Origin: Candidatus Omnitrophota bacterium
GTDB lineage: Bacteria > Omnitrophota > Gorgyraeia > B26-G9
Assembly: GCA_043826565.1 (NCBI GenBank)
Contig: JBDRPX010000019.1
Coordinates: 5,369-69,368 of the forward strand
Direction: 5' to 3'
Length of the DNA: 64,000 nucleotides
A program made the position numbers and the translations under genes. Positions 16,265 through 56,504 of the stretch are shown here, in pieces; positions within the stretch are counted from its first letter, which is position 1, and each line of letters begins with the position of its first letter. A model generated the notes under the pieces. That model was not told the DNA's origin. It searched no databases and worked only from the letters and a program-made list of their open reading frames with translations.

Positions 16265-16266
16265 AT

Positions 16267-18285: not shown

Positions 18286-18319
18286 TATCGCAAGCAATAC
18301 TGTCCTAAGGAGGAAAAAT

Positions 18320-28441: not shown

Positions 28442-31400
28442 ATGTTTAAATCAAGAAAAATTACAAAGGTAATTGCTGGCATTGTTCTGCAGGTGTTTTT
28501 CTTTTCAAATTTTGCTTTGTGCGGGGATATGAATATGTCTCCTGATAGGGTGCGGAAATCAGATACCCTTGCCCCCCATATCGCGATAGGAATATCTTCG
28601 ATGCAGCAGATGTTTGCAGATACAGTATATCCTAGATGGTCAGCCGGCCGGCAGCAGCTTTCCGTAAATACCGGTGCTAGCGAGAAAGTTTCAACAATAC
28701 ATACCATAGATAATTTAAAACAAAAAGTTAAAGCCGGTAAATCAAAAGGAGTTATTTTGGTAGCCGGAGGCGCCGGATATATCGGAGGGCATACTGACCG
28801 TGCTTTAATGCAATCCGGTTATGATATTGTAATTTTGGATAACCTGGTAAATGGCCGGCGTTTTGTAGTTGAGCGTAATCAGGCTTATGCTCAGGATAAT
28901 GATAAAATTTGTGTTTTTGAACAAGCAGATTTAAAAAATAGTGAAGATGTTCTCAAAAAATATAAAGAAGCGGGAATACCGATTGTCGGAACAATTCATT
29001 TTGCGGCATACATTGAAGTGGGAGTGTCCGTAGAGCGTCCGTGTGTTTATGCTTTAAATAATATTATTAATACTCTCCGGCTGCTTTATGCCGCAAAGAA
29101 ATATGGAGTTAAAAATATTGTATTTTCTTCGTCAGCCGCTGTATATGGGACTCAGAAGAAAATGCCTCTAGAGGAAGGCCGAAGAAAGCACCCCACCAGC
29201 CCTTATGGATTTAATAAATGGGTTATGGAATTAATGATTAAATCATTCCAGAAGCTGGGTATGTCTTGGATTGCCTTGCGTTATTTTAATGCTGCCGGGG
29301 CTGCTTCCGACGGAGCTTTAGGAGAATCTCATCCTCTTCCGGATTCACATGTAATCAGAGCGGTTTTTCGTAGATTTTTAGATGGATTGGCCGCGGCAAT
29401 ATTCGGCCGGGATTATCCCACGGCTGACGGTACTTGTGAACGTGATTATATCCATGTTGAGGATTTGGCAGACGCGCATGTCCGGGCAATTGAAGCTTTA
29501 ATTAACGGAAAAAACCAGGAAGCAATTAACCGAGCATATAATGTCGGAACCGGTGAAGGTCTTTCTGTGTTGGAGATGATTGGTCTGATTACTAAACTAA
29601 TGGGTAAGGTAGTTAAAAAATTCTTTGTCCGGGAAGAAGCCCGTCGAGCTGGTGATCCGCCGGCTTTGGTCGCCGATTCCAGTGATATTCAAAGGAACCT
29701 GGGATGGAAAGCAATGCGTGATCCGCAGGTAATTGTAAAATCAGCGATTAAATGGGATATTTCTCCCCGTCAGCCGGAAGAAATTTATGAACCAAAGCCG
29801 CTTCCGAATATCTCAGAGTATGATGCTTATCAGGAAATCAAAAAAGTTTTAGCAGAAGATAAATTGCTGCCTTTGGGAGTAAAACTTTATATTAAGTGGA
29901 AACTTTTATGGGAGATTAGAACGGCATTAAAGCAGCGTTATGCTAAGGCGGTTAAGTTACTTAAGGCCAAACAGAAAATATATGCGGATAATTCTGACCT
30001 GCAGAAGATGATCAGTGCAAATCTTTTCTTGTTAGAAAAATATAAATGGATTAGCATTGCTGACTTAAGTTTGTTTGGTAAAGGATCAGCTTTTGAAAGA
30101 ATGGATTCTCTGCTTCGTTTTATCGAAAAAGTTCAATGGCCTAAATTAGATAAACTTCCGGAAGATAAAGCTGAGCGTGAGCAATATATTCTTCAAGATC
30201 CGATAGTTGCTGATTGTAAAGCCCAAGAAGCTGTAAAAAATACTTTTTCTTATGATCAGGGGCATGTATTTGATTATTGGCTTCAGTTAAGCAGTGAGGG
30301 AAAAAAGGAATTGTTGGGTTGTCTTACGGTGATTAATTTTGAAGAAGCGTTTAGGCTTTATCAGGAAAACGTAAAAAATAAACAGGATATTAAAGTTGAT
30401 TTCGAATCATTGCATGCGCCGTCAAATATGATGACTGCCGAAGAGGCATTGGCAAGTAATCAGCATTTAATGGCAAATGCTTTACGCATGGGTAAAGTCG
30501 CGGTTTATTTACTTGCCGGAGGCAGCGGAACGCGTTTAGATTATGACCATCCTAAAGGGATGTTTGAGTCCAGCCCATTAAGCGGAGCTTCTTTATATCA
30601 GCAGTTTGCGGATGAGGTTAGGGAGTTGGGTAATCGTTACGAAGCAAAAATACCTTTACTTGTGCAGACTAGTGAAGGCACGGATGAAGAAACAAAAGTA
30701 TTCTTTGCCAATAATAATGATTTTGGGATCCAGGATTCTACCCGGTTTGAACAGCAGCGGAGTTTTCCGGTATTTGATAAAGACGGAAAATTTATTCTGA
30801 CGACAAAGAGTTCTATTCAGATCGGCGGTTTTGGTCATGGAGATGTTACGGATTTTGTTTTACGGAAAAACGACGTGCGCGGCTGGCTGCAGGATAATTT
30901 TGGGACAAAATATGTACTCATGGTTCAGGTGGATAATCCGCTTGCGGTTAAGCAATTAGAGGCAATGTTAGCGGCGCATTTAAAGGATGAACAGCAGCGC
31001 GCATATAATGCTCCGGAAAATGCCGCACATATCAGTTATGGGCTTATTGAAAAACTGGCCCCGGATGACCGGTTGGGAAATCTGGCGGAAACTGAAGAGG
31101 GTTTGTGGCAGATGGTTGAGTATTCGGAAGTCGATCAGCTAAGTGAAGCGGCAAAAAAGAAGATTGTTTCTGATGTGGGCAGTCCGAATATTTTAATGAT
31201 AAGTTTAGACGGTTTAGATAAATTGCCGGCACTTTCAGTGCATGTTGACCGCGGCAAAAAAGTTTTTTCAATGCAGGCCGAGGGAAAGGTTCCCGGAGAT
31301 AAAATGGAAACATTTGTTTTTGATACCCGGGCTTATGGCGCGGCAGTGGTCTTACCTAGATACAGCTCGTTTGCTCCGACTAAGAAAAGAGAGCGTGATG

Positions 31401-33169
31401 CTGCCGGTGTTTTAGCTGATGAAAGCAGGCTTACTGCTGTGGCGGTGCAGTCATATCATCATGCTAAGCAGTTAGAGAAAAAAGGCTGGATAATGCCTGA
31501 TATAGTGGTAGAAGAGGTAGAGGGTAAGTTTGTCCAAAGATATTCGGCACTTGTAGAAATGACTCCGGAGTTTTCCATTGGACAGATTGGCAGTAACGGA
31601 TTTTTAAATCCAGATGGAGGAACTCTTTTCTTAAGCGGAAACAGAACACATATTGGAGATAATTGTCGGATAGAGGGTGGATTATATATTGATGTAAAAA
31701 AGACCGGGGGGCCGCTGGTTGGCGGCGTAGTAAATATCGGTGATAATGTAACTTTTAAAGGTAATGTAAAAATTACTGTGCATGGACATGGAGTAATTCA
31801 TATCCCTGCCGGAGTAACTGTTGATCATGATATTACGGTTTTTGACGGAGAAGTTGTAACCTTATTTAATGAGTCTTTTGAGGGAAGACGGAATAAGGAA
31901 GCGCTGCAGTTTGCCGAGATGATGTTTAAAGACAGCGCGTCTAGTCAGGCAGCGTATGAATTCTTAAAAACCAATAAAACCATTATTAATACTTTTGCCG
32001 GAACATTAAAGGTAGAGTTAGTTCCGGATACTGATCGTATTTCCTATTCCGTGATTATTTCCGCCCGGAATAAAAACAATGACGGCTGGCAAAGAGTCGG
32101 CAATCTGCCGTTTACTTATTTTAGTTCTTTTGAAAATGGCCGGCAAATGGTTACTTTTCCTGATGCAAATGATATTGTTGATGAAAAATGGGTGGGAGTG
32201 GTCGAAGATTATTTGATGATGTTTGCGCTTACTTTTGGAGCGTTTAACGGGGTGAGGTCGCAGGATATTGTTAATGACAGTATTGATCGTAATTTTCTTA
32301 TGCGTTTAGGCTATGATCAGGCAAATAAAATATCTAAGGCCGGAGAAAAGATTGAAGTGATCAGATTTAATCTGCGCGAATTTTCCGCGCTTATGGATCG
32401 AGAACGTTTAACCGAAAGCTCTGTACTGCCTCAACAGAAAAAACTAGGCAGAGTCGATGATGGTTTTGAGGTAGTCGATGAGGTAAAAGCAGTATTTATT
32501 GATATCGGCGGTGTTTTAATCGCGCATGATTTCAGGAAACAGGCAAAAAATCTTAAACAGGCAGCGGGAGATACTAAATATTCGGTTGAGTGGATTGAAG
32601 AACAGTTAAGAGATGAGAGATTTTTAGCGCCTTATGAAAGCGGGGTTATAGACACTCAGGAGTTTTATCGTAGAGTAAAAGCTTTGTTTGGTTGGAATAA
32701 GTTGAGCTATGAAGATTTTGTTAAAGCTTATTTGGATATATATAGTCCGAATCGGGATAATATTGCTGCCTTGCGCAGATTAAAATACGCAGGTTATGAA
32801 ATTTATCTGGTGACCAATGCTGGCCCTTTGGTAAAAGAATTTTGGATGGAAACTTTTCCGGAGATGCATAACTTAGCCGACGGTGTTATTGCTTCCTGTG
32901 AGGTCGGGGTAATGAAGCCGGTTAGAGCGATTTATAAAGGAGCATTAAGAGTTGCCGGAATAGCCGATCCCCGACAGGTTATTTATATTGATGATGTCTA
33001 TGCTAATATTATCGGTGCTGAATTAGAGAAGATGAATGCACTTAAGTATAATCGAGGAAGTGACCTGGGAAATCTGATAAACACTGAGTTTACGAGAATA
33101 ATAACGCATAGTACTGTGGCCCTGCAGCGTATTAAGCTGGCGGTCCAGCTGATCAGCCAGTCAATTTAA
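28442..33169 (+). CDS. 1575-aa multidomain protein: signal/anchor peptide + NAD-dependent UDP-sugar 4-epimerase (GalE-like) + eukaryotic-type UDP-sugar pyrophosphorylase (UAP1/AGX family) + left-handed β-helix + HAD-like hydrolase domain
   Basis: GalE region: 'VAGGAGYIGGHT' Rossmann motif and the 'YGFNKW' YxxxK catalytic motif. UAP1 region: 'VAVYLLAGGSGTRLDYDHPKGMFE' matches the UAP1/UGP 'L(L/N)GG(Q/L)GTRLG..PKG' signature. β-helix region: imperfect hexapeptide repeats around 'IGDNCRIEGG...VNIGDNVTFKGNVKI'. HAD region: 'VFIDIGGVLI', 'YLVTNAG', 'IYIDDV' HAD-like motifs. Confidence 0.75.
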   Translation: MFKSRKITKVIAGIVLQVFFFSNFALCGDMNMSPDRVRKSDTLAPHIAIGISSMQQMFADTVYPRWSAGRQQLSVNTGASEKVSTIHTIDNLKQKVKAGKSKGVILVAGGAGYIGGHTDRALMQSGYDIVILDNLVNGRRFVVERNQAYAQDNDKICVFEQADLKNSEDVLKKYKEAGIPIVGTIHFAAYIEVGVSVERPCVYALNNIINTLRLLYAAKKYGVKNIVFSSSAAVYGTQKKMPLEEGRRKHPTSPYGFNKWVMELMIKSFQKLGMSWIALRYFNAAGAASDGALGESHPLPDSHVIRAVFRRFLDGLAAAIFGRDYPTADGTCERDYIHVEDLADAHVRAIEALINGKNQEAINRAYNVGTGEGLSVLEMIGLITKLMGKVVKKFFVREEARRAGDPPALVADSSDIQRNLGWKAMRDPQVIVKSAIKWDISPRQPEEIYEPKPLPNISEYDAYQEIKKVLAEDKLLPLGVKLYIKWKLLWEIRTALKQRYAKAVKLLKAKQKIYADNSDLQKMISANLFLLEKYKWISIADLSLFGKGSAFERMDSLLRFIEKVQWPKLDKLPEDKAEREQYILQDPIVADCKAQEAVKNTFSYDQGHVFDYWLQLSSEGKKELLGCLTVINFEEAFRLYQENVKNKQDIKVDFESLHAPSNMMTAEEALASNQHLMANALRMGKVAVYLLAGGSGTRLDYDHPKGMFESSPLSGASLYQQFADEVRELGNRYEAKIPLLVQTSEGTDEETKVFFANNNDFGIQDSTRFEQQRSFPVFDKDGKFILTTKSSIQIGGFGHGDVTDFVLRKNDVRGWLQDNFGTKYVLMVQVDNPLAVKQLEAMLAAHLKDEQQRAYNAPENAAHISYGLIEKLAPDDRLGNLAETEEGLWQMVEYSEVDQLSEAAKKKIVSDVGSPNILMISLDGLDKLPALSVHVDRGKKVFSMQAEGKVPGDKMETFVFDTRAYGAAVVLPRYSSFAPTKKRERDAAGVLADESRLTAVAVQSYHHAKQLEKKGWIMPDIVVEEVEGKFVQRYSALVEMTPEFSIGQIGSNGFLNPDGGTLFLSGNRTHIGDNCRIEGGLYIDVKKTGGPLVGGVVNIGDNVTFKGNVKITVHGHGVIHIPAGVTVDHDITVFDGEVVTLFNESFEGRRNKEALQFAEMMFKDSASSQAAYEFLKTNKTIINTFAGTLKVELVPDTDRISYSVIISARNKNNDGWQRVGNLPFTYFSSFENGRQMVTFPDANDIVDEKWVGVVEDYLMMFALTFGAFNGVRSQDIVNDSIDRNFLMRLGYDQANKISKAGEKIEVIRFNLREFSALMDRERLTESSVLPQQKKLGRVDDGFEVVDEVKAVFIDIGGVLIAHDFRKQAKNLKQAAGDTKYSVEWIEEQLRDERFLAPYESGVIDTQEFYRRVKALFGWNKLSYEDFVKAYLDIYSPNRDNIAALRRLKYAGYEIYLVTNAGPLVKEFWMETFPEMHNLADGVIASCEVGVMKPVRAIYKGALRVAGIADPRQVIYIDDVYANIIGAELEKMNALKYNRGSDLGNLINTEFTRIITHSTVALQRIKLAVQLISQSI

Positions 33170-36700: not shown

Positions 36701-36799
36701 ATATTATCCTGTAGGGGCCGGGCTTGCCTCGGCCCGTTAAGAGGATTGACAAATATCCAATCTGCGTATACTATAGAGAAAAAAAGGAACTTTTTATCC

Positions 36800-37483: not shown

Positions 37484-37524
37484 AGGGAGAACTTATTGTG
37501 AACAGTATATTTAGGTTTAAAAAA

Positions 37525-38154: not shown

Positions 38155-38173
38155 TAATAGTCGAAATGAGATC

Positions 38174-39859: not shown

Positions 39860-39943
39860 AGATCTTCCCGCGACTTGCATCAGCCCATCTATTATGGTAT
39901 ACTTTATTACTTTTTGTAACTGAAAGGAAAGTAGTGAAGCCGA

Positions 39944-42030
39944 AACGATCATACTTTTTCATAATATTTATTCTGGCCCAAATATTAATTGTAAGTCCTT
40001 TGCGCGGGGAGACCGGATGTTTATCTCCCGCGCTTAGCCTCAAAGATATATCAAATTGGGTTGCCTATTCTGTTGATAATCATCTTATTCCCAAAGATAC
40101 TGCTGCCGGAGAGCAAGATAGATTTAACGCAATAGCCCGGAATCCTCAGGAACTGCTGGCTTTGGTAAAACAGGAGATGGCTTTTTCCGGCAGTGCGGAA
40201 TTGCCGAAAGTTGTCGTCATGTCTGATTTTCACGGAGCAATAAAAATATTTTTAGATTACATCAGCGATGCCTTATCCCGTAAACTGGGAGTTCCGGTGG
40301 TGCTTGACCATACGGAATTTCCGCGGAAGTCAATACAGCAGCAGCTTGCGGAACAGGGAATTGATATCCGTTCGATAAAGAATTTCCAATTTTATCTGCT
40401 GGGAGATTTCATGGATCGGGGTGAATACGGAGTCAAATGTTTTCTGGCCGCGGAAGAACTTGATTCTCTGGGGCTGGCCAAAATTGTTTTTGGTAATCAT
40501 GATGTTTTTTCTATACTTGCCTGTGTGGGATATCATCTGCCTATATATAAAGGATATAATTTTTACGGACATTATGAATCCGAACAGCTGGTGTTTTCCG
40601 AACACTGGGATGATTTGGAAATCAGCCCAGACCGTTTTGGCTGGTGGCAGGAAAAACTTGTTGAATATATTACGGAGCAAAAAAAACTGCAGGATAACTT
40701 TATTATAGTAAATAACACTCAGGTATCATTCGGGCAGATTCGCGAACAATTAAAAGACATTTGTAAACAGGTGCAGTCCCAGGGAGGGATACCCCAGGAA
40801 CAGATGGAAGTTCTGGGTGATTTAGCGGGATTTTATTTCGGCACGACAGATGTTTATACCGGGTTTAATGCGGTCGGGATGATGTCGGTCCAGTGGTGGG
40901 AAGAACGGCTTGCCAGTGTGGATAAATTTTGTTCTGAAGCGATAGATAAGGAACTTATGCATCAGTTATCCATCTGGGGGCATATTAAACAGTGTATTGA
41001 AGAGGTGATCCCGGTTGTCGGCAGACAATTGCAGGAGAAAAAAGCTCAAGGTAAGTGGTGGTGGCAGGTTTTTAATGATATTAATGATCAGGCTTATAGT
41101 TCTCCGGAATGGTACGCGCAGGACTGGATTTTTCATAACGGATGGGGAGGAAGCGTGTTTAAAGAATTAAATGAGCTTGACTCTGATTTAGAAGATCAAA
41201 AATGGAATGCTTCGAATTTCTTTCGTAATCCTTATCTTAAAAAGTTTACTCGTTTTGGGCATGATAAATTTACTCTTGCCCGGGAAGACCCCTACGGGTT
41301 TTTTTATTCTCATGGATGGTTTCCGGTTAATCGGCAAAGCGGGGTTCCGGGGTTTGTTTATCAAAACACCATATATTCCGGGGAGTATTTATTTTCCGGG
41401 CTGCAAATAGTTGAACAAGATTTTCGTTCGGTTCTGGCGATGCGGATGGATGATAGGCAGGATGATGCGGAAGTTACCCGTCAGCTTAGAGACTCGGTTA
41501 GCCTGGTTATTTCCTGGTACGCGGATAAGACCATTCGTATCAAGCCGGCGCACATTCGTGCTTATTTGGACGGGTTTGGATTAGAAGCTATTCAAAAATC
41601 AATCGGCCGGCATGTCTGGTTTACTTGTCATAATCCGTTGAATACTTTAATTCCCCTGGGAATAGGCTTTAGTATGCAGGAAGGTGATTATGTCCATATT
41701 TCTGTTGATAAAGGGATGAGCTGGGAAAAATTCCGAGATGTCGGCGGATATGTGGAAGTCGATGCCTCTTCCGGAATTGTTTTACGCGGCTATAGCGGCA
41801 ATGATTTTACTCAGATTATTGATACCCCTCCGGCAATGGTTATGTCAAAGGATCAATATGGCCAATGGTACCATGAGTCGCTTTGGGAAAATAAATCAGT
41901 TAGCCGGGAGACTCTTTTACCGATAGCTGCTGCCCAGCTTGCTGAAAAATTGTATGCTCCGGAAGTTGCCGGTTCAGTAGAGGCTAAAAACCTGCCGCCG
42001 GCTTTATCCCTTATTGAGCAGGCAATTTAG
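39944..42030 (+). CDS. fbp: fructose-1,6-bisphosphatase class 3 (metallophosphoesterase-type, Firmicutes Fbp/YydE-like) with an N-terminal signal/anchor peptide
   Basis: 'VMSDFHG', 'LLGDFMDRGEYG' and 'VFGNHDVFSILACVG' align with B. subtilis Fbp 'FVSDLHG', 'VVGDIYDRGPQP' and 'QWGNHDVLWIGAYSG'. C-terminal matches include 'NTIYSGEYLFSG' vs 'WTGEYSSLFG'. Likely GTG start at 39944 (RBS 'aggaaag'), giving 'MKPKRSYFFIIFILAQILIVSPLRGETGCLSP'. Confidence 0.7.
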
Positions 42031-42263
42031 CGTGTTTTGCCCCCAAGCTTAAATATTAGTAATTTTAAAATGAGTTGATTTTCTAATACCTTCCTACACA
42101 ATAAGTTACATCTGCGAAAAAAATCAAAGCCACCTTGCGAGATTTTATTTTATATGGTATACTTTTAGGAATTTTGTAAACTTTTTAAAGCTGATTTTTA
42201 AACATTACTAAAATAAGTTTGGCAAATTAAGCGATTTTGTAACTATGAAAGGAGTAGCGCCAT

Positions 42264-45200
42264 ATGTTTATGTCTTCAAAAACCAACCTGTTTTTCAAAG
42301 TCATTTCTTTTATTATCATGCAGTCGTTTTTAATCACTAATATTTCCTTTGCTGCGGGAGGTAATTTTTTTGTTAATTCAGAAGAAAGGGGTTGTTTGTC
42401 ACCAGAGATGCAGATACCTAACCAAATAATGATGAGAGATTTTAAAAACCAGACGATTATTAAAGGAGATTTATCCCAACTTACTTCTATTTTACCTAAA
42501 GCTATCATTGGTGAAGATGAGGCATATGAACAGTTAAAACGTTTAGCTTTAACTACTCCTGAAACTTTGATCGAATATTTTGAAGCTCAGTTACCTGAGG
42601 CTATTGAAGCGATGACAGAATCTATGTTTGGTAAGGGATTTGGTTATGATGTGCGCGGAAATGCCTGGGAAGTAGCTTCCGGTGAAGTAGATTTAACTCC
42701 TTTGAGTTGTTATTTGATCGGAAAAGCGCTGGCCACAAGATATGCCGAACAGGGAGAAGGTGTCGAATTTACCGGAGACCAGAGAATACATACGCCGATG
42801 TTAAGACTGGCATTATCTCTCGGAGCGCAGTCTGCCGGAGCAAAGCTGTTTTTTAGTGATGAGATTGTCGGTACCGGTGAACATGGGATATTATCCGGAG
42901 AGAATCCTAATAATGTTAAGGTTATGGGGCAGGTTTCCGGATCTCACGGTATTCCGGCAAAGAATGGTTTTAAACTAAAAGTAATAGATCCTAAAACCGG
43001 CCAGTTAGAACCGCTGTATGGGAAAGAATTAGCTAATCTGTATACTTTGATTAAAAGCGGGAATTTAAGAACAGTAGAAAGTTTTATTCCGCTGACAGAG
43101 CAGAATGATCTTATTGAAAAAGCAGTAGATGCTTATGATAAGACATTACCCCAGGTGTCAGTTGATCAGCCGGTAGTTTTTGATTGCCGTAATTCAGCAT
43201 TAACTACAGTATTAAAAAAGATAGTTGAAAAAAGAGGATTGAAGAATGTATTCTGGCTGAATGATACCCCGGATGGAAGAATGCCGGGTGGAATTTGGGA
43301 CCCTTCTAAACCGGAAGCTTTGGTTGCTTGCCAGAATAAAGTTCTGGAGATTAATGCTTCAGGACAGTTTAAGAAAAAAGCCATAGGATTTGTGTTTGAT
43401 GGAGATGGAGACCGGGCGGCAGCGATTTTAGAGGATGGAAGAGCAGTTCCTTCTTTTGAAATGACCCTTCCTTTTTATCAGAGATTGTTCTCTGATCCGA
43501 TTAATCAGGAAGTAATGAATACACTGATTAATGCCGGATTTGATAAGATATGGGCAATAACCGATATTCGCGCTAATTCCCGTTTAAAAAATATGTTTCG
43601 CAGGTATTCTGACTGGATAACCGGTAAATATATTACTACGGGATATCCGCCGCAAAGAGCGGTTGTACGTCATATATTTAGTGAAATAGAAAAATATGTT
43701 GCCGCCAACCCAAGCAAGTTTGATGCTGGTTTTGCGGAAAAGCTTAGACATTTTAAGACCACATATTTTACGGCAGAAGCATCCGGCCATCAGTTTTTTC
43801 ATATTTGTCCAAATTATCCGGAAAAAGTAATTGATGCGGGTATCGCCGTAGCTTTTAATTTATTGCATATTAAAGAAACAATTCAGGATGTAGAAGCTAA
43901 GGATGAAAAAGTCGGATTATCGGCAGGACAAGATTCTTATTTACTGACAGAACTTTTTGATCATTTTCCTCCGGCGATCAGTTCCGGAGAAGTCAGGATC
44001 GTTGTGCCGAATTCAATTAAGTTTGAAGTAACCGATGCGATGATTGTTAAATTAAAAGAAAAATATGCGGATGATTTTTTACCGACCCCTCTGGGAACAG
44101 TTGATATGGGGGATTACTTATTGCAGGATATGGATGAAGGAAAAGTAGAAGTTGCCGGATTTTTGGGGTTACTTAAGACCGGCGGCAGCTTTTTGTTTCG
44201 CGTATCAAATACCGGTGAGCAGTGTACATTGATATTTGAAGGCGGAGATATTCAGGAGCTTATTAGGCTGATGGAAGAAATGAAACAGTTGGTTTTAGAT
44301 ACTAAAGCTGAATTTGAAGCAGACGCATCAACTGCGGAAGCGGCAAAAAATATTAAAGTCGATGATTTGGAAAAGGAAATTCAAATGACAATTGAAGCGG
44401 CTGAAGAAATAACTCCGGCAGCTCCGATAGTTATTAATACTGCTACTCTACAGGCTGATTCTTTAGGTGCTTTAAGCCTGAGTAATGGCGAAATTGCCGA
44501 TGTTAATAGGACGATGGAAGGTATCCAAAGAACAATGCAATTTGAAGATAATGATGTGACTACCGAGCTTGGCCGTCAGAGGTTGTTAAAGAACTGGCGC
44601 GGTTGGGTGTTTGGAGAACAGGAATGGGCAAACCAGGGAATTGAAGATACTGTTACGGTAGCTCAGAAAGTTCGTGATGATAATCCTGAGGCATTTGTGG
44701 TTGTTGGTGTCGGCGGATCAGATCAGACAACAAAGGGAATTGTTAATGCCAATATCAGTACTCAGCATAATCTGCTTTCTAAAGAAGCTAGAGGCGGGGC
44801 TCCGATGTTATTCTACACCGGTGATGGTTTTGATCCGAATAGTACCTATGATACATTACAGGTTCTTGATGAAAAAGGGATTTTGTTTAAAACAAAATTC
44901 AATATAATTTCTAAATCCGGAACTACCGGGGAAACAGCGCATGCTTTCCTGGTTATTAAAAGTTATCTTGAAGTTAGATTAGAACAGCTTGCTGTGCAAT
45001 ACGCGGCACGTCAGATAAAGGACAAAGACTTAGAAGCTATGGGTTTAACTGCTAAAGATCTAGAGAAAGTAACATTGAATTATACAGTAAAATTAGATGC
45101 CGGAGAAGAAGCTGTCACAGAAGAAACTTTCCGTACCGGGCGTTTCTTTGTCTTTACCACAGGCTTAAATGATAAGAGCGCATTGTATAATTATGTTCAG

Positions 45201-46103
45201 CTTATTCGTGAACAGGCAGGTGATGATGTGTTTGGATTATTGCCGGTTCCGGATGGTACCGGAGGAAGATACTCTTTTGGTACAGCCGTGGGTATGCTGG
45301 CGATGGGAGTAATGGCAAATACAAGCAAGGGAGAAACTCCGGAAAGCAGAATAAGACAGGTATTAGAGGCGATAAAAGATGTGCGTAACGAAATTTTAAA
45401 CGGTAGTGTTGAAGGTGATAATGTTCCTTCATTTGCTATTGCCCGGGCTAATTATTTAGCAGAAAAACACGGCTTAGGAACAGTGGCGATATATCCGTTT
45501 GCAAATATGTTACAGGAATTTGCTAATCTGATGATGCAGCTTTCTACAGAATCAATTCGGGAAAAGGGTCAGGGACAGAATATTCTTCCGTTGGTTGGTC
45601 CTTCACGTAACCACTCTGTAGTGAATGGAATTATTAATGGGCCCAGAGATACCATCATATGTTTTATTGAAGTTGCTGCTTTTGACCCGGCAAAAGATGC
45701 AACTATTACTGGTGGAAAAGTACTTGGCGGAAGCTTAATGCAGCTGGAGCAATTAAAACAGTCTGATATCCAGAAGGCATCTTTGGATGGGACTCTTAAG
45801 GATGCGATTGAAAAGGGTGTGCCGGCTTACAAGATTACAATTCCGGCTTTAACTCCGTATTATGTAGCTAAGTTAATTGCTTATTTTGAGCATGAAGTAG
45901 CTATTGAAGGAATGCTTAGAGGACTTAGAGAGCCTTCGAATGCAGAAGGTGTTTATGTTGATTTAACCTATTTGCAGTCTAGTGTTGAAGGATATAAGGC
46001 TCAGACCCGTGCTATCTTAAGTGAGATAAGAGCAGCTAAGTTTGGACCTGTCCAGACATCAGCTAATCGTGACATGGTTAGTGTAGTCGGTAGTTCCATA
46101 TAA
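42264..46103 (+). CDS. 1279-aa fusion: signal peptide + α-D-phosphohexomutase (PGM/PMM/AGM family) + glucose-6-phosphate isomerase (PGI)
   Basis: Phosphohexomutase region: active-site-loop-like 'VSGSHGIPAKNGFK' and Mg-binding 'FDGDGDRAA'. PGI region: SIS 'VVVGVGGSDQT' and signature 'PDGTGGRYSFGTAVGM'. N-terminal 'MFMSSKTNLFFKVISFIIMQSFLITNISFA|AGG...ERGCLSPEM'. Confidence 0.75.
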   Translation: MFMSSKTNLFFKVISFIIMQSFLITNISFAAGGNFFVNSEERGCLSPEMQIPNQIMMRDFKNQTIIKGDLSQLTSILPKAIIGEDEAYEQLKRLALTTPETLIEYFEAQLPEAIEAMTESMFGKGFGYDVRGNAWEVASGEVDLTPLSCYLIGKALATRYAEQGEGVEFTGDQRIHTPMLRLALSLGAQSAGAKLFFSDEIVGTGEHGILSGENPNNVKVMGQVSGSHGIPAKNGFKLKVIDPKTGQLEPLYGKELANLYTLIKSGNLRTVESFIPLTEQNDLIEKAVDAYDKTLPQVSVDQPVVFDCRNSALTTVLKKIVEKRGLKNVFWLNDTPDGRMPGGIWDPSKPEALVACQNKVLEINASGQFKKKAIGFVFDGDGDRAAAILEDGRAVPSFEMTLPFYQRLFSDPINQEVMNTLINAGFDKIWAITDIRANSRLKNMFRRYSDWITGKYITTGYPPQRAVVRHIFSEIEKYVAANPSKFDAGFAEKLRHFKTTYFTAEASGHQFFHICPNYPEKVIDAGIAVAFNLLHIKETIQDVEAKDEKVGLSAGQDSYLLTELFDHFPPAISSGEVRIVVPNSIKFEVTDAMIVKLKEKYADDFLPTPLGTVDMGDYLLQDMDEGKVEVAGFLGLLKTGGSFLFRVSNTGEQCTLIFEGGDIQELIRLMEEMKQLVLDTKAEFEADASTAEAAKNIKVDDLEKEIQMTIEAAEEITPAAPIVINTATLQADSLGALSLSNGEIADVNRTMEGIQRTMQFEDNDVTTELGRQRLLKNWRGWVFGEQEWANQGIEDTVTVAQKVRDDNPEAFVVVGVGGSDQTTKGIVNANISTQHNLLSKEARGGAPMLFYTGDGFDPNSTYDTLQVLDEKGILFKTKFNIISKSGTTGETAHAFLVIKSYLEVRLEQLAVQYAARQIKDKDLEAMGLTAKDLEKVTLNYTVKLDAGEEAVTEETFRTGRFFVFTTGLNDKSALYNYVQLIREQAGDDVFGLLPVPDGTGGRYSFGTAVGMLAMGVMANTSKGETPESRIRQVLEAIKDVRNEILNGSVEGDNVPSFAIARANYLAEKHGLGTVAIYPFANMLQEFANLMMQLSTESIREKGQGQNILPLVGPSRNHSVVNGIINGPRDTIICFIEVAAFDPAKDATITGGKVLGGSLMQLEQLKQSDIQKASLDGTLKDAIEKGVPAYKITIPALTPYYVAKLIAYFEHEVAIEGMLRGLREPSNAEGVYVDLTYLQSSVEGYKAQTRAILSEIRAAKFGPVQTSANRDMVSVVGSSI

Positions 46104-46124
46104 GCACTAAATTACGAATTAAAA

Positions 46125-46165
46125 CCCCGTTAGGCTAGGTCCCTGGCGGGGTTTTTTTATTACCC
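46125..46165 (+). terminator. rho-independent terminator
   Basis: aaccccg...cggggtt stem followed by TTTTTTATT. Confidence 0.65.
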
Positions 46166-46343
46166 GGATATTTAATTCTATGATCTACTTTGAATCCAAA
46201 TTGCTACCCAACTGCTTCGTTATGCTCGGTCGGATTTCCTCGACGTGCCTCAGAGGGCACGCCTGTGGAATCCTTGGTCGCAAGCCTTGCATTTGGGCAA
46301 CACTTTGAATTCTCGCTACGATAATAGTATTAAATATCCGGGT
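46163..46343. other. GC-rich structured element bounded by 14-bp perfect inverted repeats (candidate ncRNA or MITE)
   Basis: 'cccggatatttaat' at 46163 and 'attaaatatccggg' at 46330. The interior has nested hairpins (ggatttcc.../ggaatcc; gtgcc-tcagag-ggcac) and far higher GC than the flanks. Confidence 0.35.
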
Positions 46344-46436
46344 TAAAACAATTGATTTTTCGACTTAATAAGGATATACTAACTGGAAAAGGGTTATATT
46401 CCCGGATGCGGGATTTAAAAGGTATAAGTTTAAGCT

Positions 46437-46742
46437 ATGTTTGTTATTATATATATTTTGGAAGGCTTGGCTGTAGTCGTGGGCATGGGATTAACCATTT
46501 TATATTGGTTGATCTTGATCCGGGTTTTGATCTCCTGGGTAAGCCCGGATCCGAGAAATCCGCTGGTGCAGTTTTTAAGAGCAGCAACAGATCCGATACT
46601 GGAGCCTTTTAGACAGCTGTTAATGCCGTTAACATATAAGATCCGGGTAGACTTATCACCGATACTTGCGTTTTTTCTTATTTCTTTTTTACGCCGGGAG
46701 TTAGTCAGCATATTATTACATTTAGCAGATACATTTAAATAG
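46437..46742 (+). CDS. yggT: YggT-family small membrane protein
   Basis: 'LISWVSPDPRNPLVQFL...TDPILEPFRQL' YggT/Ycf19 motif. Confidence 0.6.
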   Translation: MFVIIYILEGLAVVVGMGLTILYWLILIRVLISWVSPDPRNPLVQFLRAATDPILEPFRQLLMPLTYKIRVDLSPILAFFLISFLRRELVSILLHLADTFK

Positions 46743-46830
46743 TAAGAAGTAAATAAAGTAGCGAGTAGCAAGTAGAGAGTAGCGAGATAAAAAATAATAA
46801 GAAGCCCGAGAAAAGAGGTAGAGAAGAAAA

Positions 46831-48531
46831 ATGGCTTTTAAGAGAGAAGTGTTTGATAAGTTTTTAGATGCGATAATTAAAATTGCGGCCAGTGTATCTT
46901 TTATCCTATTGGTTTTCCAGTGGGGAGTGCATGTTAATGAGATGCCTTTGGAGCTGTTTAATAGAGTAGATACAATTGTGCTGTATACTTTTTTGACTAC
47001 AGTGGCCTTAAGATTTTTATTATCTCCGTCGAAACTGCAGCATTTTAAGAAAAACTGGCTGGATCTTATTGTGATTATCCCGGCAGTGCAGTTTTTTGCG
47101 CATGGGTTAAGAACCGCGTGTCTTTTTATTGTTATTCGTCAGAGTTTTCTGCTTTTTAAAAGGCTATTCCGCAGCGGTATGCTCCAGAAATTAATCAACT
47201 TATTAGGTTTAAAACCGGCACAGCTGCTGGTTGTGAGTTTTGGCATGACCATACTTGTGGGAGCATTTTTACTTACCTTACCCATTGCCACGCAAGACGG
47301 CAGCGGAGCTGATTTTATCGACGCGCTGTTTACCGCGACTTCCGCGACCTGTGTTACCGGTTTGATCGTTCAGGATACCGGAACTTTTTTCTCTACTTTT
47401 GGACAGATAGTAATTCTGGCCTTGATCCAGGTCGGAGCTTTGGGGATCATGACCTTTTCGGTAACTTTATTTTTAGCTGTGGGCCGTCAGGTTTCCAGCA
47501 AAGAGAGAATGGCCATGCAGGAAGTACTGGATCAGGATAGCGCGGCGGATATTTTGGGACTGGTTAAGTTTATTGTTGGAATGACCATATCGGTTGAACT
47601 TATCGGTGCGGCTTTTTTGTACTTCTCATTTACCCCGTATATTTCTGATCCGCTAAACAGATTATATGCAGCGGTATTTCATTCGATATCCGCGTTTTGT
47701 AATGCGGGATTTTCCGTATTTTCGGATAATCTGATGGCTTATGTAACTGATCCAAAAATCAATCTGTGTATTTGTTTTTTGATTATCTTCGGCGGGATCG
47801 GATTTATCGTTGTTAAAGATCTTTGGGATAAATACATAATACGTAAACGTTCCCGGGCCTTACGCTTGAAACTGCATACAAAACTGGTTTTGACCATGAG
47901 TCTGGCATTACTGATCATCGGTACGGTTTGTATTTATTTTGCCGAAAGTAATGCCGCGTTAAAAGGCATGCCGTTAAAAGACCAAATATTGGTCAGCTTT
48001 TTCCAGTCGACATCGGCAAGAACTGCCGGATTTAATACCATTGATATCGGAAAGATGACTAATTCCAGTGTGTTTATTATGATTGTGCTGATGTTTATCG
48101 GAGCGTCTGCCGGTTCTACAGGCGGCGGTATTAAAACCACGACATTTTGGATCATCCTCAAGGCATTTACCAGTCATATGAAAAATAAAGAAGATATCAG
48201 CGCGTTTAAGCGCAAAATCCCGGATGTGATCCTGGGCAAGGCAATTACGGTTGTGGTATTATCTACCGGCCTGGTGATTTTATTTACTTATCTTTTGGGA
48301 GTATTTGAGCAGTTACCTTTTCGTGATCTGGTATTTGAAGTAGTTTCGGCTTTCGGTACCGTAGGCTTATCCTGCGGTATAACCTTTGACCTTAATCTGG
48401 CCGGGAAAGTCTTGATTACGATATTGATGTTTTTAGGCAGGCTGGGGCCGTTAACTGTGGTACTGGCATTTTCACGTTATACCCGTAAGATAAATTATAC
48501 ATATGCGGAAGAAAAAATTATGGTAGGATAA
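46831..48531 (+). CDS. trkH: TrkH/KtrB-family potassium transporter with an N-terminal two-helix extension
   Basis: Repeated M-P-M units with selectivity-filter-like 'TATSATCVTGL' and 'TARTAGFNT' loops. 566 aa. Confidence 0.75.
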   Translation: MAFKREVFDKFLDAIIKIAASVSFILLVFQWGVHVNEMPLELFNRVDTIVLYTFLTTVALRFLLSPSKLQHFKKNWLDLIVIIPAVQFFAHGLRTACLFIVIRQSFLLFKRLFRSGMLQKLINLLGLKPAQLLVVSFGMTILVGAFLLTLPIATQDGSGADFIDALFTATSATCVTGLIVQDTGTFFSTFGQIVILALIQVGALGIMTFSVTLFLAVGRQVSSKERMAMQEVLDQDSAADILGLVKFIVGMTISVELIGAAFLYFSFTPYISDPLNRLYAAVFHSISAFCNAGFSVFSDNLMAYVTDPKINLCICFLIIFGGIGFIVVKDLWDKYIIRKRSRALRLKLHTKLVLTMSLALLIIGTVCIYFAESNAALKGMPLKDQILVSFFQSTSARTAGFNTIDIGKMTNSSVFIMIVLMFIGASAGSTGGGIKTTTFWIILKAFTSHMKNKEDISAFKRKIPDVILGKAITVVVLSTGLVILFTYLLGVFEQLPFRDLVFEVVSAFGTVGLSCGITFDLNLAGKVLITILMFLGRLGPLTVVLAFSRYTRKINYTYAEEKIMVG

Positions 48532-48534
48532 ATA

Positions 48535-48732
48535 AATTAAAAGTCAAAAATCAAAGGTCAAAAGGCAAAAGTGCAACTCAAAATTCAAAACTAGTTAAAC
48601 AGTAGGAAAGATAACTGAGATTAGTGAAATATTGAGGATGCTTACTGCAGGAAGATTACAATCGAAGAACAAAAAGTTTTTATTTTTAAATTATATTTTT
48701 GAGTTTTGAATTCTAAATTTTGAGTTTTAACA
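48535..48732. repeat. inverted pair of 'TCAAAA' heptamer arrays
   Basis: 'aaagtcaaaaatcaaaggtcaaaaggcaaaagtgcaactcaaaattcaaaac' ... 'tttgagttttgaattctaaattttgagttttaac'. Confidence 0.5.
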
Positions 48733-48743
48733 GGAGGTTTATA

Positions 48744-49796: not shown

Positions 49797-49894
49797 CACT
49801 TCATAGGAGAGTTCCAGGTTTCATGTCCCAGGTAGCAGGAAAAACCTGAGACATGCGGCTTGTGACCTGTAACTAACTTTAAAAGGGAACATTA

Positions 49895-55941: not shown

Positions 55942-55946
55942 TTTGC

Positions 55947-56474: not shown

Positions 56475-56504
56475 TGTTTTACTCTTGGTTTAGCAGCAAC
56501 TAGG

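What the first reader, a model, noticed from the sequence alone, without database searches (positions are those of the whole stretch)
42264..46103. Phosphohexomutase-PGI fusion behind a cleavable-looking signal peptide
Two consecutive sugar-phosphate interconversion steps are fused: 'FDGDGDR' metal loop with an 'SGSHGIP' phosphoserine-loop variant, then 'GGRYSFGTAVG' with the SIS domain. Both are normally separate cytosolic proteins. The Ser-loop deviates from the canonical TASHNP, so the mutase may have altered specificity (e.g. GlcNAc-6-P/GlcNAc-1-P as in AGM1) or be regulatory.
Basis: partly seen in the sequence, partly recalled or inferred. Interest (0 to 1): 0.7.

Follow-up and report, generated by a model that had tools for sequence, protein, structure and literature searches.

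The report
Signal-tagged phosphoglucomutase–glucose-phosphate isomerase fusion, Omnitrophota
One uninterrupted gene of an uncultured Omnitrophota bacterium fuses two apparently intact sugar-phosphate enzymes (phosphohexomutase and glucose-6-phosphate isomerase) behind a secretion-type leader that two other sugar-enzyme genes in the window share, so it is a compact, testable case of this phylum's unexplained habit of putting export signals on normally cytoplasmic glycolytic enzymes.

Summary
ORF 42264..46103 (+) encodes 1279 aa without interruption, and a second assembly is base-identical. It has its own ribosome-binding site and terminator.

Both halves look like complete enzymes.
- **Mutase half:** a four-domain PMM/PGM-class phosphohexomutase with Ser227, DGDGDR, AEASGH and RVSNTG.
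- **Isomerase half:** a short bacterial-type PGI with SKSGTT, GGRYS, Glu1096, His1117 and Lys1245.

The 'SGSHGIP' loop keeps the catalytic Ser-His. The N-P to G-I change is a trait of the subfamily. Nothing points to AGM1 or to a pseudo-enzyme.

The window comes from a Candidatus Omnitrophota MAG. The N-terminus is a rule-conforming Sec-type leader followed by a 'CL[S/A]P' motif. Two other sugar enzymes in the window carry the same leader, motif and '…[Q/S][A/S]I' C-terminus: GalE–UDPGP–HAD and a Metallophos phosphoesterase.

Both modules recur shuffled in many long Omnitrophota proteins. Two distant relatives also fuse this mutase to this PGI. A syntenic relative has leader–other PGM–transaldolase–PGI at the same locus.

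Two preprints already note PGM, PGI and FBPase domains in predicted extracellular parts of giant Omnitrophota proteins.

The likely function is G1P⇌G6P⇌F6P. Localisation is unresolved: I favour export over a cytoplasmic-face tether. Novelty: new variant of a known kind.

The parts
42135..42163 (+). Promoter-like site (TTGCGA-17-TATACT, with TG) upstream of the fusion gene
   Evidence: This is a consensus match only. The number of such sites in the region is no higher than in shuffled sequence, so the evidence is weak.
42250..42254 (+). Shine-Dalgarno AGGAG, 9 nt before ATG 42264
   Evidence: Read directly from the sequence.
42264..46103 (+). Fusion gene, 1279 aa: leader, phosphohexomutase, linker, glucose-6-phosphate isomerase
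42264..42353 (+). Sec-type leader, residues 1-30: MFMSSKTNLFFK / VISFIIMQSFLI / TNISFA. Putative SPase I site after SFA. A Gln sits in the middle of the hydrophobic core and is conserved in most sister leaders.
   Evidence: Only hydrophobic segment in the protein. Alignment of leaders. Modelled as a helix at residues 5-25. Codon-position pattern of substitutions against L003.
42393..42443 (+). Post-leader linear motif C44-L-S-P-E-M-Q-I-P...F60 (consensus C-L-[S/A]-P-x-[L/I]-x-[I/L]...F), lying in a low-confidence and probably disordered segment
   Evidence: pLDDT is 22-36 over residues 21-69.
42474..42629 (+). Helical N-terminal extension (residues ~71-122) that travels with this mutase subfamily
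   Evidence: Helices 71-81, 85-97 and 99-116 with pLDDT 70-85. Conserved in P0002-P0005, P0032, P0036 and P0046.
42630..44321 (+). Phosphohexomutase module (residues ~123-686), PMM/PGM class. Ser227 (nt 42942-42944), D379/D381/D383-R384, E505-x-S507-G-H509, R646-x-S648-N-T650.
44322..44429 (+). Low-confidence linker (residues ~687-722) between the two enzymes
   Evidence: pLDDT is about 50 or lower at the junction in both models.
44430..46049 (+). Glucose-6-phosphate isomerase module (residues ~723-1262). GVGGS 815-819, SKSGTTGET 883-891, GGRYS 1000-1004, Glu1096, His1117, Lys1245. An insert of about 55 extra residues (helix plus beta-hairpin, ~905-962) lies between SKSGTT and GGRYS.
46083..46100 (+). 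C-terminal tail VVGSSI-COOH, of the type hydrophobic-hydrophobic-x-[Q/S]-[A/S]-I shared with the two other leader-tagged proteins in the window
46121..46155 (+). Intrinsic-terminator-like hairpin (14 bp, 7 GC pairs) followed by a T-run, 18 nt after the stop codon
39934..42030 (+). Upstream gene: leader-tagged Metallophos phosphoesterase (698 aa, P0006). Leader ...ETGCLSPALSLKD, tail ...LIEQAI. Only a weak resemblance to class III FBPase.
28442..33169 (+). Leader-tagged GalE-UDPGP-HAD fusion (1575 aa). Leader ...SDTLAPHIAIG...MF, tail ...LISQSI.

Best explanation
The gene encodes a catalytically competent bifunctional enzyme.

**Shown here**
- A PMM/PGM-class phosphohexomutase module would interconvert a hexose-1-phosphate and a hexose-6-phosphate through phospho-Ser227 and a Mg2+ held by Asp379/381/383.
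- A short linker joins it to a PGI module that would isomerise glucose-6-phosphate to fructose-6-phosphate through Glu1096, His1117 and Lys1245.
- Both modules have complete folds and complete catalytic motif sets.
- The protein carries a lineage-specific address label: a Sec-type leader with a Gln in its hydrophobic core, then a 'CL[S/A]P' motif in a disordered stretch, and a '...[Q/S][A/S]I' C-terminus.
- Two other proteins in the window carry the same label: GalE-UDPGP-(glucose-1-phosphatase-like HAD) and a Metallophos phosphoesterase.
- The modules are shuffled among long Omnitrophota proteins.

**Inferred**
- The substrates are glucose phosphates, so the polypeptide carries out G1P<=>G6P<=>F6P. 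The three labelled proteins together act around the UDP-hexose and glucose-1-phosphate hub.
- The leader is a real Sec signal. The three enzymes would then work outside the cytoplasm, either in the periplasm or tethered to the outer face of the inner membrane.
- There they would convert scavenged, possibly host-derived, UDP-hexoses and hexose phosphates into forms that can be imported or dephosphorylated. This would resemble the periplasmic UshA/Agp/AphA scavenging route of E. coli (my own knowledge, not tested here).
For: **Continuity of the ORF:**

**Mutase half**
- Pfam and NCBIfam hits.
- Ser and metal loops align with P. aeruginosa PMM/PGM.
- All four loops are conserved across 42 homologues.
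- The model matches full-length PMM/PGM, with TM-score 0.75 normalised to the target.

**Isomerase half**
- Motifs conserved in 30 homologues.
- Model pLDDT 91, TM-score 0.82-0.87 (normalised to the target) to the T. maritima and Bacillus PGIs.

**The mutase-PGI pairing appears to be selected**
- Distant relatives P0067 and P0076 (~31% identity) have the same module order.
- In a syntenic relative (~69% identity for RecJ, YggT, TrkH and ALAD), the gene at the same locus is leader + a different PGM type (TASHAE, DMDNDR, WEESGG, RPSGTEP) + transaldolase + an orthologous PGI at 69% identity.

**Glucose-1-phosphate hub**
- The GalE module scores above NCBIfam's equivalog cut-off.
- UDPGP is present, and the HAD module's best match is glucose-1-phosphatase.

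**Export**
- There is a single N-terminal hydrophobic segment.
- Lysines precede the core and net negative charge follows it.
- Small residues sit at -3 and -1.
- A genuine outer-membrane beta-barrel protein in the window has the same '...SNSVFA|IP' ending.
- Leaderless stand-alone members of the same PGI clade exist, so the leader is an added feature.
- The leader+motif occurs in exactly three window ORFs of 250 aa or more, all sugar enzymes, against 0.0026 expected per 45-residue stretch.
- West-Roberts et al. predict PGI, PGM/PMM, FBPase, TPI and FBA domains of giant Omnitrophota proteins to be extracellular.
- 94% of Omnitrophota proteins of 10,000 aa or more carry a signal peptide or a TM helix.
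Against: - No activity, cleavage or localisation was tested, and no dedicated signal-peptide predictor was run.
- The substrates are normally cytoplasmic.
- Sister proteins carrying a hydrophobic N-terminal leader include ATP- or UTP-dependent modules that would be useless without nucleotides: PGK and UDPGP in P0066, which has the same leader and motif, and ROK kinase in P0028-P0030, which have a hydrophobic leader but not the motif.
- A conserved Gln in the hydrophobic core is unusual for Sec signals and could instead mediate helix-helix association of an uncleaved anchor.
- The upstream Metallophos leader in this window lacks a good -3/-1 cleavage site.
- Complete-genome surveys detect canonical PGI in only 67 of 176 Omnitrophota. 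Divergent fused copies like this one could therefore be the only PGI, which would require access to the cytoplasm. I could not inventory the rest of this MAG.
- Two active-site-proximal positions differ from canonical PMM/PGM: SHNP becomes SHGI, and 'PNHxPDP' becomes 'PGGIWDP'. Hexose specificity is therefore not settled.
Confidence: 0.45

Rival explanations
1. The enzyme chemistry is the same (G1P<=>G6P<=>F6P), but the leader is not cleaved and does not export the cargo. It is a membrane anchor and clustering device. [quoted passage not shown] The result would be a tethered housekeeping metabolon linking gluconeogenesis or glycolysis to UDP-hexose supply for envelope synthesis.
For: - Sister proteins with hydrophobic N-terminal leaders carry nucleotide-dependent modules: PGK and UDPGP in P0066 (same leader and motif), and ROK kinase in P0028-P0030 (hydrophobic leader without the motif).
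- In L001 a 3050-aa cupin-GPI-TIM-PGK-enolase protein sits next to a PGM-like-iPGM protein. This looks like core glycolysis rather than scavenging.
- A polar Gln is conserved in the middle of the hydrophobic core in about 16 of 19 leaders.
- Canonical PGI is missing from 109 of 176 complete Omnitrophota genomes by KO search.
- The 2026 preprint reads the sugar-metabolism module of long proteins as compatible with a cytoplasmic-face location, and West-Roberts et al. caution that the extracellular prediction may be wrong.
Against: - The charge distribution (Lys before the helix, acidic after it) predicts N-in/C-out.
- The hydrophobic core is short (~12-18 residues, with Ser, Thr and Asn).
- It is followed by a good -3/-1 site in most homologues.
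- There is no second TM segment to bring the cargo back inside.
- Leaderless paralogues of the PGI clade exist.
Confidence: 0.35
2. One or both halves are non-catalytic: a pseudo-enzyme, sugar-phosphate sensor, scaffold or surface adhesin. The canonical Asn-Pro of the Ser loop and the domain-II His are lost.
For: - SHNP becomes SHGI and 'PNHxPDP' becomes 'PGGIWDP' in this subfamily.
- All NCBIfam equivalog scores are far below cut-off.
- Pfam does not detect PGM domains III and IV in this protein.
Against: - The nucleophile Ser-His, all three metal Asp plus Arg, the E-x-S-G-H sugar loop and the R-x-S-N-T phosphate loop are invariant or nearly so across 42 divergent homologues.
- All PGI catalytic positions are invariant across 23-30 homologues.
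- Both models superpose over the full length of active enzymes.
- This pattern indicates purifying selection on catalysis.
Confidence: 0.06
3. The fusion is an artefact: a misassembly or a missed frameshift or stop joining two separate genes, or a wrongly extended start codon creating a false leader.
For: The sequence comes from a metagenome-assembled genome. The identical NCBI protein comes from the same contig and is not independent evidence.
Against: - A second assembler gives an identical 16.3-kb contig.
- The same module order occurs in P0067 and P0076 from other samples.
- The orthologous locus in L003 also ends in a fused PGI behind the same leader.
- An RBS lies 9 nt before the ATG.
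- The leader is conserved with a third-codon-position bias in its differences.
Confidence: 0.02

Closest known systems
P. aeruginosa PMM/PGM (AlgC) and archaeal PMM/PGM: the ~450-aa class of the alpha-D-phosphohexomutase superfamily
   Same: - Four-domain fold: TM-score 0.75 normalised to the target over the whole of 2fkm and 4il8.
- Ser227-His228 align with Ser108-His109.
- DGDGDR is identical.
- E-x-S-G-H and R-x-S-N-T loops are present.
   Different: - Only ~20% identity.
- About 120 extra residues, including a helical N-terminal extension.
- SHNP becomes SHGI, and domain-II 'PNHHPDP' becomes 'PGGIWDP'.
- Fused to PGI and preceded by a leader.
- Activity and hexose specificity are untested.
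Short bacterial glucose-6-phosphate isomerases (T. maritima TM1385 2q8n; Bacillus 1b0z and 3ifs; S. aureus 3ff1)
   Same: - Fold: TM-score 0.82-0.87 normalised to the target.
- SKSGTTxET and GGRYS motifs.
- Catalytic Glu, His and Lys.
   Different: - ~20% identity.
- 'QHS' becomes 'NHS', and 'DQxGVExxK' becomes 'LQSSVEGYK'.
- About 55 extra residues (helix plus beta-hairpin) between SKSGTT and GGRYS.
- Belongs to an Omnitrophota-centred clade found both as stand-alone proteins and inside long proteins.
Giant multi-enzyme proteins of Omnitrophota ('Archaeovorins', West-Roberts et al. 2023 bioRxiv 10.1101/2023.11.21.568195; 'multi-enzyme metabolic clusters', 2026 bioRxiv 10.64898/2026.06.07.730766)
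   Same: - Same phylum.
- PGM/PMM, PGI, FBPase-like, HAD, ROK and other sugar-metabolism domains strung in one polypeptide behind a signal peptide or TM helix.
- The same localisation paradox, stated in the 2023 preprint.
- The mutase module of this protein is found inside proteins of 1.2-7.3 thousand aa.
   Different: - This protein has 1279 aa and two enzymes only, with no repeats, C39/S8 peptidase domains or extra TM helices.
- The preprints catalogue proteins of 10,000 or 30,000 aa and more.
- In the parts I read, they do not describe the shared leader, the CL[S/A]P motif, the C-terminal tail or a PGM-PGI unit.
Bifunctional transaldolase-PGI fusions (known in some bacteria; my own knowledge)
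   Same: PGI sits as the C-terminal partner of another sugar-phosphate enzyme. The syntenic orthologue P0031 contains TAL_FSA directly before the PGI module.
   Different: The partner here is a phosphohexomutase. A full-text search found no paper describing a natural PGM-PGI fusion.
E. coli periplasmic scavenging enzymes UshA (Metallophos UDP-sugar hydrolase), Agp (glucose-1-phosphatase) and AphA (HAD phosphatase) (my own knowledge)
   Same: They are a precedent for signal-peptide-bearing Metallophos and HAD enzymes acting on UDP-sugars and glucose-1-phosphate outside the cytoplasm. The window's labelled set includes a Metallophos enzyme and a glucose-1-phosphatase-like HAD module.
   Different: Those enzymes are hydrolases. 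No exported mutase, isomerase, epimerase or UDPGP is known in that system. Homology to UshA and Agp was not tested here.

Membership tests
alpha-D-phosphohexomutase superfamily (PMM/PGM class) | Four-domain architecture (three alpha/beta/alpha domains plus a C-terminal TBP-like domain) | tested here: met
   Pfam domains I and II are above cut-off. The AlphaFold model (pLDDT 69.6) aligns over the full length of 2fkm, 4il8 and 1k35 with TM-score 0.75 normalised to the target. Domain IV is detected by Pfam only in relatives.
alpha-D-phosphohexomutase superfamily (PMM/PGM class) | Phosphoserine loop [T/S]-[A/G]-S-H-N-P | tested here: inconclusive
   S-G-S227-H228 is present and aligned with Ser108-His109. 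N-P is replaced by G-I. About 20 homologues share 'GSHG' while more distant ones keep 'GSHNP'.
alpha-D-phosphohexomutase superfamily (PMM/PGM class) | Metal-binding loop D-G-D-[G/A]-D-R | tested here: met
   D379-G-D381-G-D383-R384, aligned with D242/D244/D246/R247 of P. aeruginosa PMM/PGM.
alpha-D-phosphohexomutase superfamily (PMM/PGM class) | Sugar-binding loop (G-E-x-S-G-H) and phosphate-binding loop (R-x-S-[G/N]-T-x-P) | tested here: met
   A-E505-A-S507-G-H509 and R646-V-S648-N-T650-G-E. Both are conserved in 41 of 42 homologues. The terminal Pro of the phosphate loop is replaced by Glu or Gln in this subfamily.
alpha-D-phosphohexomutase superfamily (PMM/PGM class) | Phosphohexomutase activity and hexose specificity | not testable with these tools
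   Needs an enzyme assay with Glc-1-P, Man-1-P, GlcN-1-P and GlcNAc-1-P.
   The best NCBIfam, PDB-sequence and Foldseek matches are archaeal GlmM-type, PgmG and P. aeruginosa PMM/PGM. No AGM1 entry is among the top 50 structural matches.
Glucose-6-phosphate isomerase (PF00342, SIS fold) | Two-SIS-subdomain PGI fold | tested here: met
   Model pLDDT 91.1, pTM 0.89. TM-score 0.82-0.87 (normalised to the target) to 2q8n, 3ifs, 3ff1 and 2pgi.
Glucose-6-phosphate isomerase (PF00342, SIS fold) | Phosphate-binding SKSG[T/S]TxET and signature 'GGR[F/Y]S' | tested here: met
   SKSGTTGET at 883-891 and GGRYS at 1000-1004. G1000, G1001 and R1002 are invariant in 23 homologues.
Glucose-6-phosphate isomerase (PF00342, SIS fold) | Catalytic Glu, His and Lys | tested here: met
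   Glu1096 (QLSTES, aligned with QLWAES and QLFGES), His1117 (NHS against QHS) and Lys1245 (VEGYK against VE.GK).
Glucose-6-phosphate isomerase (PF00342, SIS fold) | NCBIfam equivalog score or measured isomerase activity | tested here: not met
   The best equivalog, NF010697, scores 111.8 bits against a cut-off of 443. The protein is therefore a divergent member by sequence. Activity cannot be tested here.
Sec/SPase I signal peptide | Positively charged n-region, hydrophobic h-region of ~10-18 residues, polar c-region with small residues at -3 and -1 | tested here: met
   K6 and K12 / VISFIIMQSFLI / TNISFA|AG. This is the only hydrophobic segment. The test is rule-based only.
Sec/SPase I signal peptide | Call by a trained predictor (SignalP, DeepTMHMM) and experimental cleavage or export | not testable with these tools
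   No predictor was available. PhoA or GFP fusions, or N-terminal proteomics, are needed.
Omnitrophota giant multi-enzyme proteins (Archaeovorins / metabolic-cluster class) | Omnitrophota origin, several sugar-metabolism enzymes in one polypeptide, and an N-terminal signal peptide or TM helix | tested here: met
Omnitrophota giant multi-enzyme proteins (Archaeovorins / metabolic-cluster class) | Length of at least 10,000 aa (2026 catalogue) or 30,000 aa (2023 study) | tested here: not met
   The protein has 1279 aa. It is a compact relative, not a giant.

The most novel reading that the evidence does not exclude
The Gln-containing leader, the CL[S/A]P motif and the '...[Q/S][A/S]I-COOH' tail together form a dedicated, undescribed sorting label. 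It would send a defined set of central sugar-phosphate enzymes (PGM-PGI, GalE-UDPGP-HAD, the Metallophos enzyme and, in relatives, TAL, PGK, iPGM and enolase fusions) to an extracytoplasmic or otherwise separate compartment. These ultra-small, probably host-dependent bacteria would then run part of hexose-phosphate metabolism outside the cytoplasm on metabolites taken from a host.
Probability: 0.2. Interest if true: 0.85.

Novelty: new variant of a known kind. Interest (0 to 1): 0.55.

Why it matters
Omnitrophota are ultra-small, uncultured and probably host-dependent bacteria. Two preprints report that their very long proteins carry glycolytic and sugar-nucleotide enzyme domains behind signal peptides. 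Neither could say whether those domains really work outside the cell, and proteins of 10,000-150,000 aa cannot be handled experimentally.

This 1279-aa protein has two intact enzymes, one leader and one short conserved motif at each end. It is small enough to express, assay and fuse to topology reporters.

If the leader exports it, that would establish extracytoplasmic hexose-phosphate interconversion as a feeding strategy. If it does not, it would show that signal-peptide predictions mislead for a whole phylum. It would also suggest that divergent fused copies like this one account for the 'missing' PGI in most Omnitrophota genomes.

The repeated pairing of a mutase with PGI also looks like selection for keeping the two steps on one polypeptide. 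That pairing appears in distant relatives and, with a different mutase type, at the orthologous locus.

Tried and rejected
- **Leader-profile search.** A profile of 19 leaders (A5) searched against the 5.8-billion-protein database returned nothing at E<=10. The leader is too short to be significant at that scale, so the full cargo repertoire of the leader remains unknown.
- **SIS-like regions of P0004 and P0005.** BLASTP of the PGI half against them was not significant (E = 0.19-12). Pfam finds no PGI or SIS domain there. I dropped my by-eye impression that these are further PGM-PGI fusions.
- **Metallophos neighbour as a class III FBPase.** Only 5 of 24 family members touch PF06874, the best at E = 1.9e-4 and below the gathering score. 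A profile search of the PDB gave only a generic metallophosphoesterase. It is not filed as FBPase.
- **Lipoprotein reading of the conserved Cys.** Rejected. The Cys lies ~13 residues after the hydrophobic core, has no lipobox before it, and is replaced by Tyr, His, Thr or Leu in many homologues.
- **Tat, prepilin or class III signals.** Rejected from the sequence: no twin-Arg, and no G|F...E5 pattern.
- **Rest of the contig.** Exact look-ups of P0001 and of the window-end ORF found no record. I could not read the remaining ~11 kb of the contig or the rest of the MAG.
- **GTDB genome scan.** It returned only two close relatives, L006 and L007. The other hits were ordinary PMM/PGM or GlmM genes at ~25% identity.
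- **RNA genes.** No tRNA or Rfam hit anywhere in the window.
- **Literature.** A full-text search found no described natural PGM-PGI fusion.

Full report

Yes. ORF 42264..46103 on the + strand is uninterrupted and encodes 1279 aa. Pfam finds PGM_PMM_I (130-259), PGM_PMM_II (301-392) and PGI (986-1097), each above its gathering score. NCBIfam gives PGI, archaeal GlmM-type and PgmG models as best hits, all far below equivalog cut-offs, so both halves are divergent.

An AGGAG lies 9 nt before the ATG. A 14-bp hairpin with a T-run follows the stop codon, so the gene looks like its own transcription unit.

The protein is identical to NCBI 'hypothetical protein ABII88_05355 [Candidatus Omnitrophota bacterium]'. 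An independent Logan assembly (L048) is base-for-base identical to window 34822-51160 and calls the same 1279-aa product. A frameshift or chimera is therefore very unlikely.

**2. The mutase half**

phmmer against PDB sequences aligns residues 128-401 with P. aeruginosa PMM/PGM. 'VSGSHGIPAKNGFK' lies on 'LTGSHNPPDYNGFK', so Ser227 corresponds to the phosphoserine Ser108. 'FDGDGDR' lies on the metal loop D242/D244/D246/R247.

In a MAFFT alignment of 42 homologous modules, all four catalytic loops are kept:
- Q-[V/I]-[S/T]-G-S-H;
- D-G-D-[G/A]-D-R;
- A-E-[A/S/T]-S-G-H;
- R-x-S-N-T.

The same subfamily has 'PGGIWDP' where relatives have 'PNHPADP' in domain II.

An AlphaFold model of residues 1-775 (5-sequence alignment, pLDDT 69.6) gives these regions:
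- a leader helix at residues 5-25;
- a low-confidence stretch at 21-69;
- a helical extension at 71-122;
- a four-domain core.

Foldseek aligns the core over the whole length of PMM/PGM structures, with TM-score 0.75 normalised to the target. Archaeal PMM/PGM and phosphopentomutase follow, then GlmM, then PGM1. No AGM1 entry appears in the top 50. The module is therefore a PMM/PGM-class phosphohexomutase with an intact catalytic apparatus. Its exact hexose specificity is open.

**3. The isomerase half**

Residues ~723-1262 align with the short bacterial PGIs of Thermotoga, Bacillus and Staphylococcus. Across 30 homologues these positions are conserved:
- GxGGS;
- SKSG[T/S]TxET;
- GGR[Y/F]S;
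- the catalytic Glu (QLSTES, Glu1096);
- the catalytic His (NHS, His1117);
- the catalytic Lys (VEGYK, Lys1245).

The model is confident (pLDDT 91.1, pTM 0.89) and matches 2q8n, 3ifs, 3ff1 and 2pgi with TM-score 0.82-0.87 normalised to the target. The segment between SKSGTT and GGRYS is ~100 residues, against ~45 in ordinary PGIs. It is modelled as a helix plus a beta-hairpin.

**4. Where it comes from and what surrounds it**

An exhaustive HMMER search of 1.84 billion representative proteins found 1446 relatives. Splitting the query into modules gave these results:
- The mutase module sits inside many proteins of 1.2-7.3 thousand aa.
- The PGI module sits inside P0031, P0053, P0055 and P0064. 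It also occurs as leaderless stand-alone proteins of 470-540 aa, one of them named Omnitrophota.
- Apart from the query's own database entry (P0001), only P0067 and P0076 (~31% identity) carry this mutase type and this PGI together, in the same order (Pfam confirmation).

P0002 fuses the same mutase to a cofactor-independent phosphoglycerate mutase. It lies next to a 3050-aa cupin-GPI-TIM-PGK-enolase protein. P0066 is leader-PGM-PGK-UDPGP.

A relative with ~69% identical RecJ, YggT, TrkH and ALAD has a single 2185-aa gene, P0031, at the same position between RecJ and YggT. P0031 has:
- the same leader (47% identity over 57 aa);
- a different phosphohexomutase type (TASHAE, DMDNDR, WEESGG, RPSGTEP);
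- a transaldolase;
- an orthologous PGI (69% identity).

The pairing 'leader + a mutase + PGI' is thus kept while the partner modules are exchanged.

**5. A shared address label**

Three ORFs in the window start with the same kind of leader followed by a CL[S/A]P motif:

| Protein | N-terminal leader and motif |
|---|---|
| Fusion | KVISFIIMQSFLITNISFA...ERGCLSPEMQIP...F |
| Upstream Metallophos phosphoesterase | ...ETGCLSPALSLKD |
| 1575-aa protein at 28442..33169 | KVIAGIVLQVFFFSNFAL...SDTLAPHIAIG...MF |

The 1575-aa protein is GalE (above NCBIfam's equivalog cut-off), then UDPGP, then a HAD module whose best hit is glucose-1-phosphatase.

The motif L[S/A]P-x(1,2)-hydrophobic-x-hydrophobic occurs after 17 of 57 signal-like N-termini in my protein set, against 0.0026 expected per 45-residue stretch. 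Among window ORFs of 250 aa or more it occurs only in these three. A Gln in the middle of the hydrophobic core is present in about 16 of 19 aligned leaders.

The same three proteins end in ...LISQSI...LIEQAI and ...VVGSSI. In the wider set, a C-terminal [A/S][I/L/V] is associated with a signal-like N-terminus (odds ratio about 7, p = 3e-5 with the Metallophos family excluded). The sequences are related to each other, so this is not a clean probability.

The leader is translated. Against L003, 28 of 62 residues are identical, half of them with different codons, and differences by codon position are 23/16/36.

**6. How it most likely works**

*Shown.* The two active sites are intact, so the polypeptide should convert hexose-1-P to hexose-6-P to fructose-6-P.

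*Inferred.* The hexose is glucose. The basis is that the other two labelled proteins make or consume UDP-glucose and glucose-1-phosphate.

*Localisation is the open point.* For export:
- The leader obeys all the classical rules for Sec signal peptides.
- It is the only hydrophobic segment.
- It resembles the signal of a genuine outer-membrane barrel protein in the same window.
- It is absent from stand-alone members of the same PGI clade.

Against export:
- Sister proteins with hydrophobic N-terminal leaders carry PGK, UDPGP and ROK-kinase modules that need nucleotides.
- The mid-helix Gln is unusual for a Sec signal.
- Canonical PGI is undetected in 109 of 176 complete Omnitrophota genomes, so fused divergent copies may be the housekeeping ones.

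I favour export (0.45) over a cytoplasmic-face tether (0.35).

**7. Comparison with what is known**

West-Roberts et al. (bioRxiv 10.1101/2023.11.21.568195) already list TPI, PGI, FBPase, PGM/PMM and FBA domains in predicted extracellular regions of giant Omnitrophota proteins, and they flag the localisation as doubtful. The 2026 preprint (10.64898/2026.06.07.730766) describes a 'sugar-metabolism module' in proteins of 10,000 aa or more, 94% of which have a signal peptide or TM helix.

This gene is a compact member of that phenomenon, not a giant. In the parts of those papers I read, I found no description of the PGM-PGI unit, the shared leader and motif, or the C-terminal tail. A full-text search found no paper on a natural PGM-PGI fusion.

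**8. Verdict**

The AGM1 or regulatory reading of the Ser loop is not supported. It is a new variant of a known, still unexplained kind. Interest is moderate to high (0.55), because it offers a tractable test of whether Omnitrophota really place glycolytic enzymes outside the cytoplasm.

Noticed in passing
window 28442-33169 (+): A 1575-aa fusion of UDP-glucose 4-epimerase (GalE, above the equivalog cut-off), UTP-glucose-1-phosphate uridylyltransferase and a glucose-1-phosphatase-like HAD hydrolase. It sits behind the same leader and 'TLAP' motif and ends in ...LISQSI. The syntenic relative L003 has no gene at this position between the TonB receptor and RlmN.
   Followed up: partly
window 39934-42030 (+); P0006-P0030: The leader-tagged Metallophos phosphoesterase belongs to an Omnitrophota family of about 25 clusters with 85 invariant positions and no Pfam model of its own. 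Three members (P0028-P0030) are fused to ROK sugar kinases. Similarity to class III FBPase (PF06874) is only weak. Nearly all members end in ...[I/V]EQ[A/S]I.
   Followed up: partly
C-termini of window ORFs 28442-33169, 39934-42030 and 42264-46103; also P0031, P0033, P0066, P0067: A conserved C-terminal tail (hydrophobic-hydrophobic-x-[Q/S/R]-[A/S]-I-COOH) co-occurs with the leader. It is also present on a leaderless stand-alone PGI (P0033). A second group of long proteins ends in ...[R/K/E][S/A]L-COOH. The meaning is unknown. It could be a PDZ or tail-specific-protease ligand, or a second sorting signal.
   Followed up: partly
P0035, P0037, P0039, P0041, P0042, P0044, P0053, P0083, P0089, P0004 (N-termini): A second conserved N-terminal arrangement in long Omnitrophota proteins: a signal-like leader ('...SF.F[S/T]N..[F/Y]A') followed by '...I.IPRD.G.VK..FTGKSGKLIVHIQDAHCNY'. 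No function is assigned.
   Followed up: no
L001 1-14704: Three adjacent genes. The first is a 3050-aa protein with cupin-type GPI, TIM, PGK and enolase domains. The second is a 1641-aa protein with no Pfam hit and a signal-like N-terminus. The third is P0002 (PGM-like plus cofactor-independent phosphoglycerate mutase). The first and third, and also P0003, share a C-terminal module of about 170 aa ('...LVI.S.FF...G...LG.YG...K.K.LL..S.N...A.T...') that is absent from the window protein.
   Followed up: no
L004 2101-2802: A small (~233 aa) protein with no Pfam hit that consists of the same leader, the 'DCLSPRLQIENLSIQGF' motif, an unknown domain and the tail ...LIELAI. The label is therefore not restricted to recognisable sugar enzymes.
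   Followed up: no
window ~55900-56500: All large ORFs before ~55.9 kb are on the + strand, with GC skew of +0.12 to +0.27. After ~56 kb the genes switch to the - strand and the skew falls to about 0 or negative. This looks like a point where replication and transcription polarity switch, possibly a terminus-like convergence.
   Followed up: no
window 13142-18916 and 2189-2977: By eye, there is a chemotaxis-type cluster (CheW-, CheC-, CheD-, CheB- and CheA-like N-termini) and a prepilin-peptidase-like ORF. Neither was checked with a domain search.
   Followed up: no
L006 (JBGPLV010000120.1): The closest GTDB-genome relative of the mutase module (55% identity) is labelled 'Elusimicrobiota bacterium'. 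This may be a binning or classification issue, or a sign that the module occurs outside Omnitrophota.
   Followed up: no
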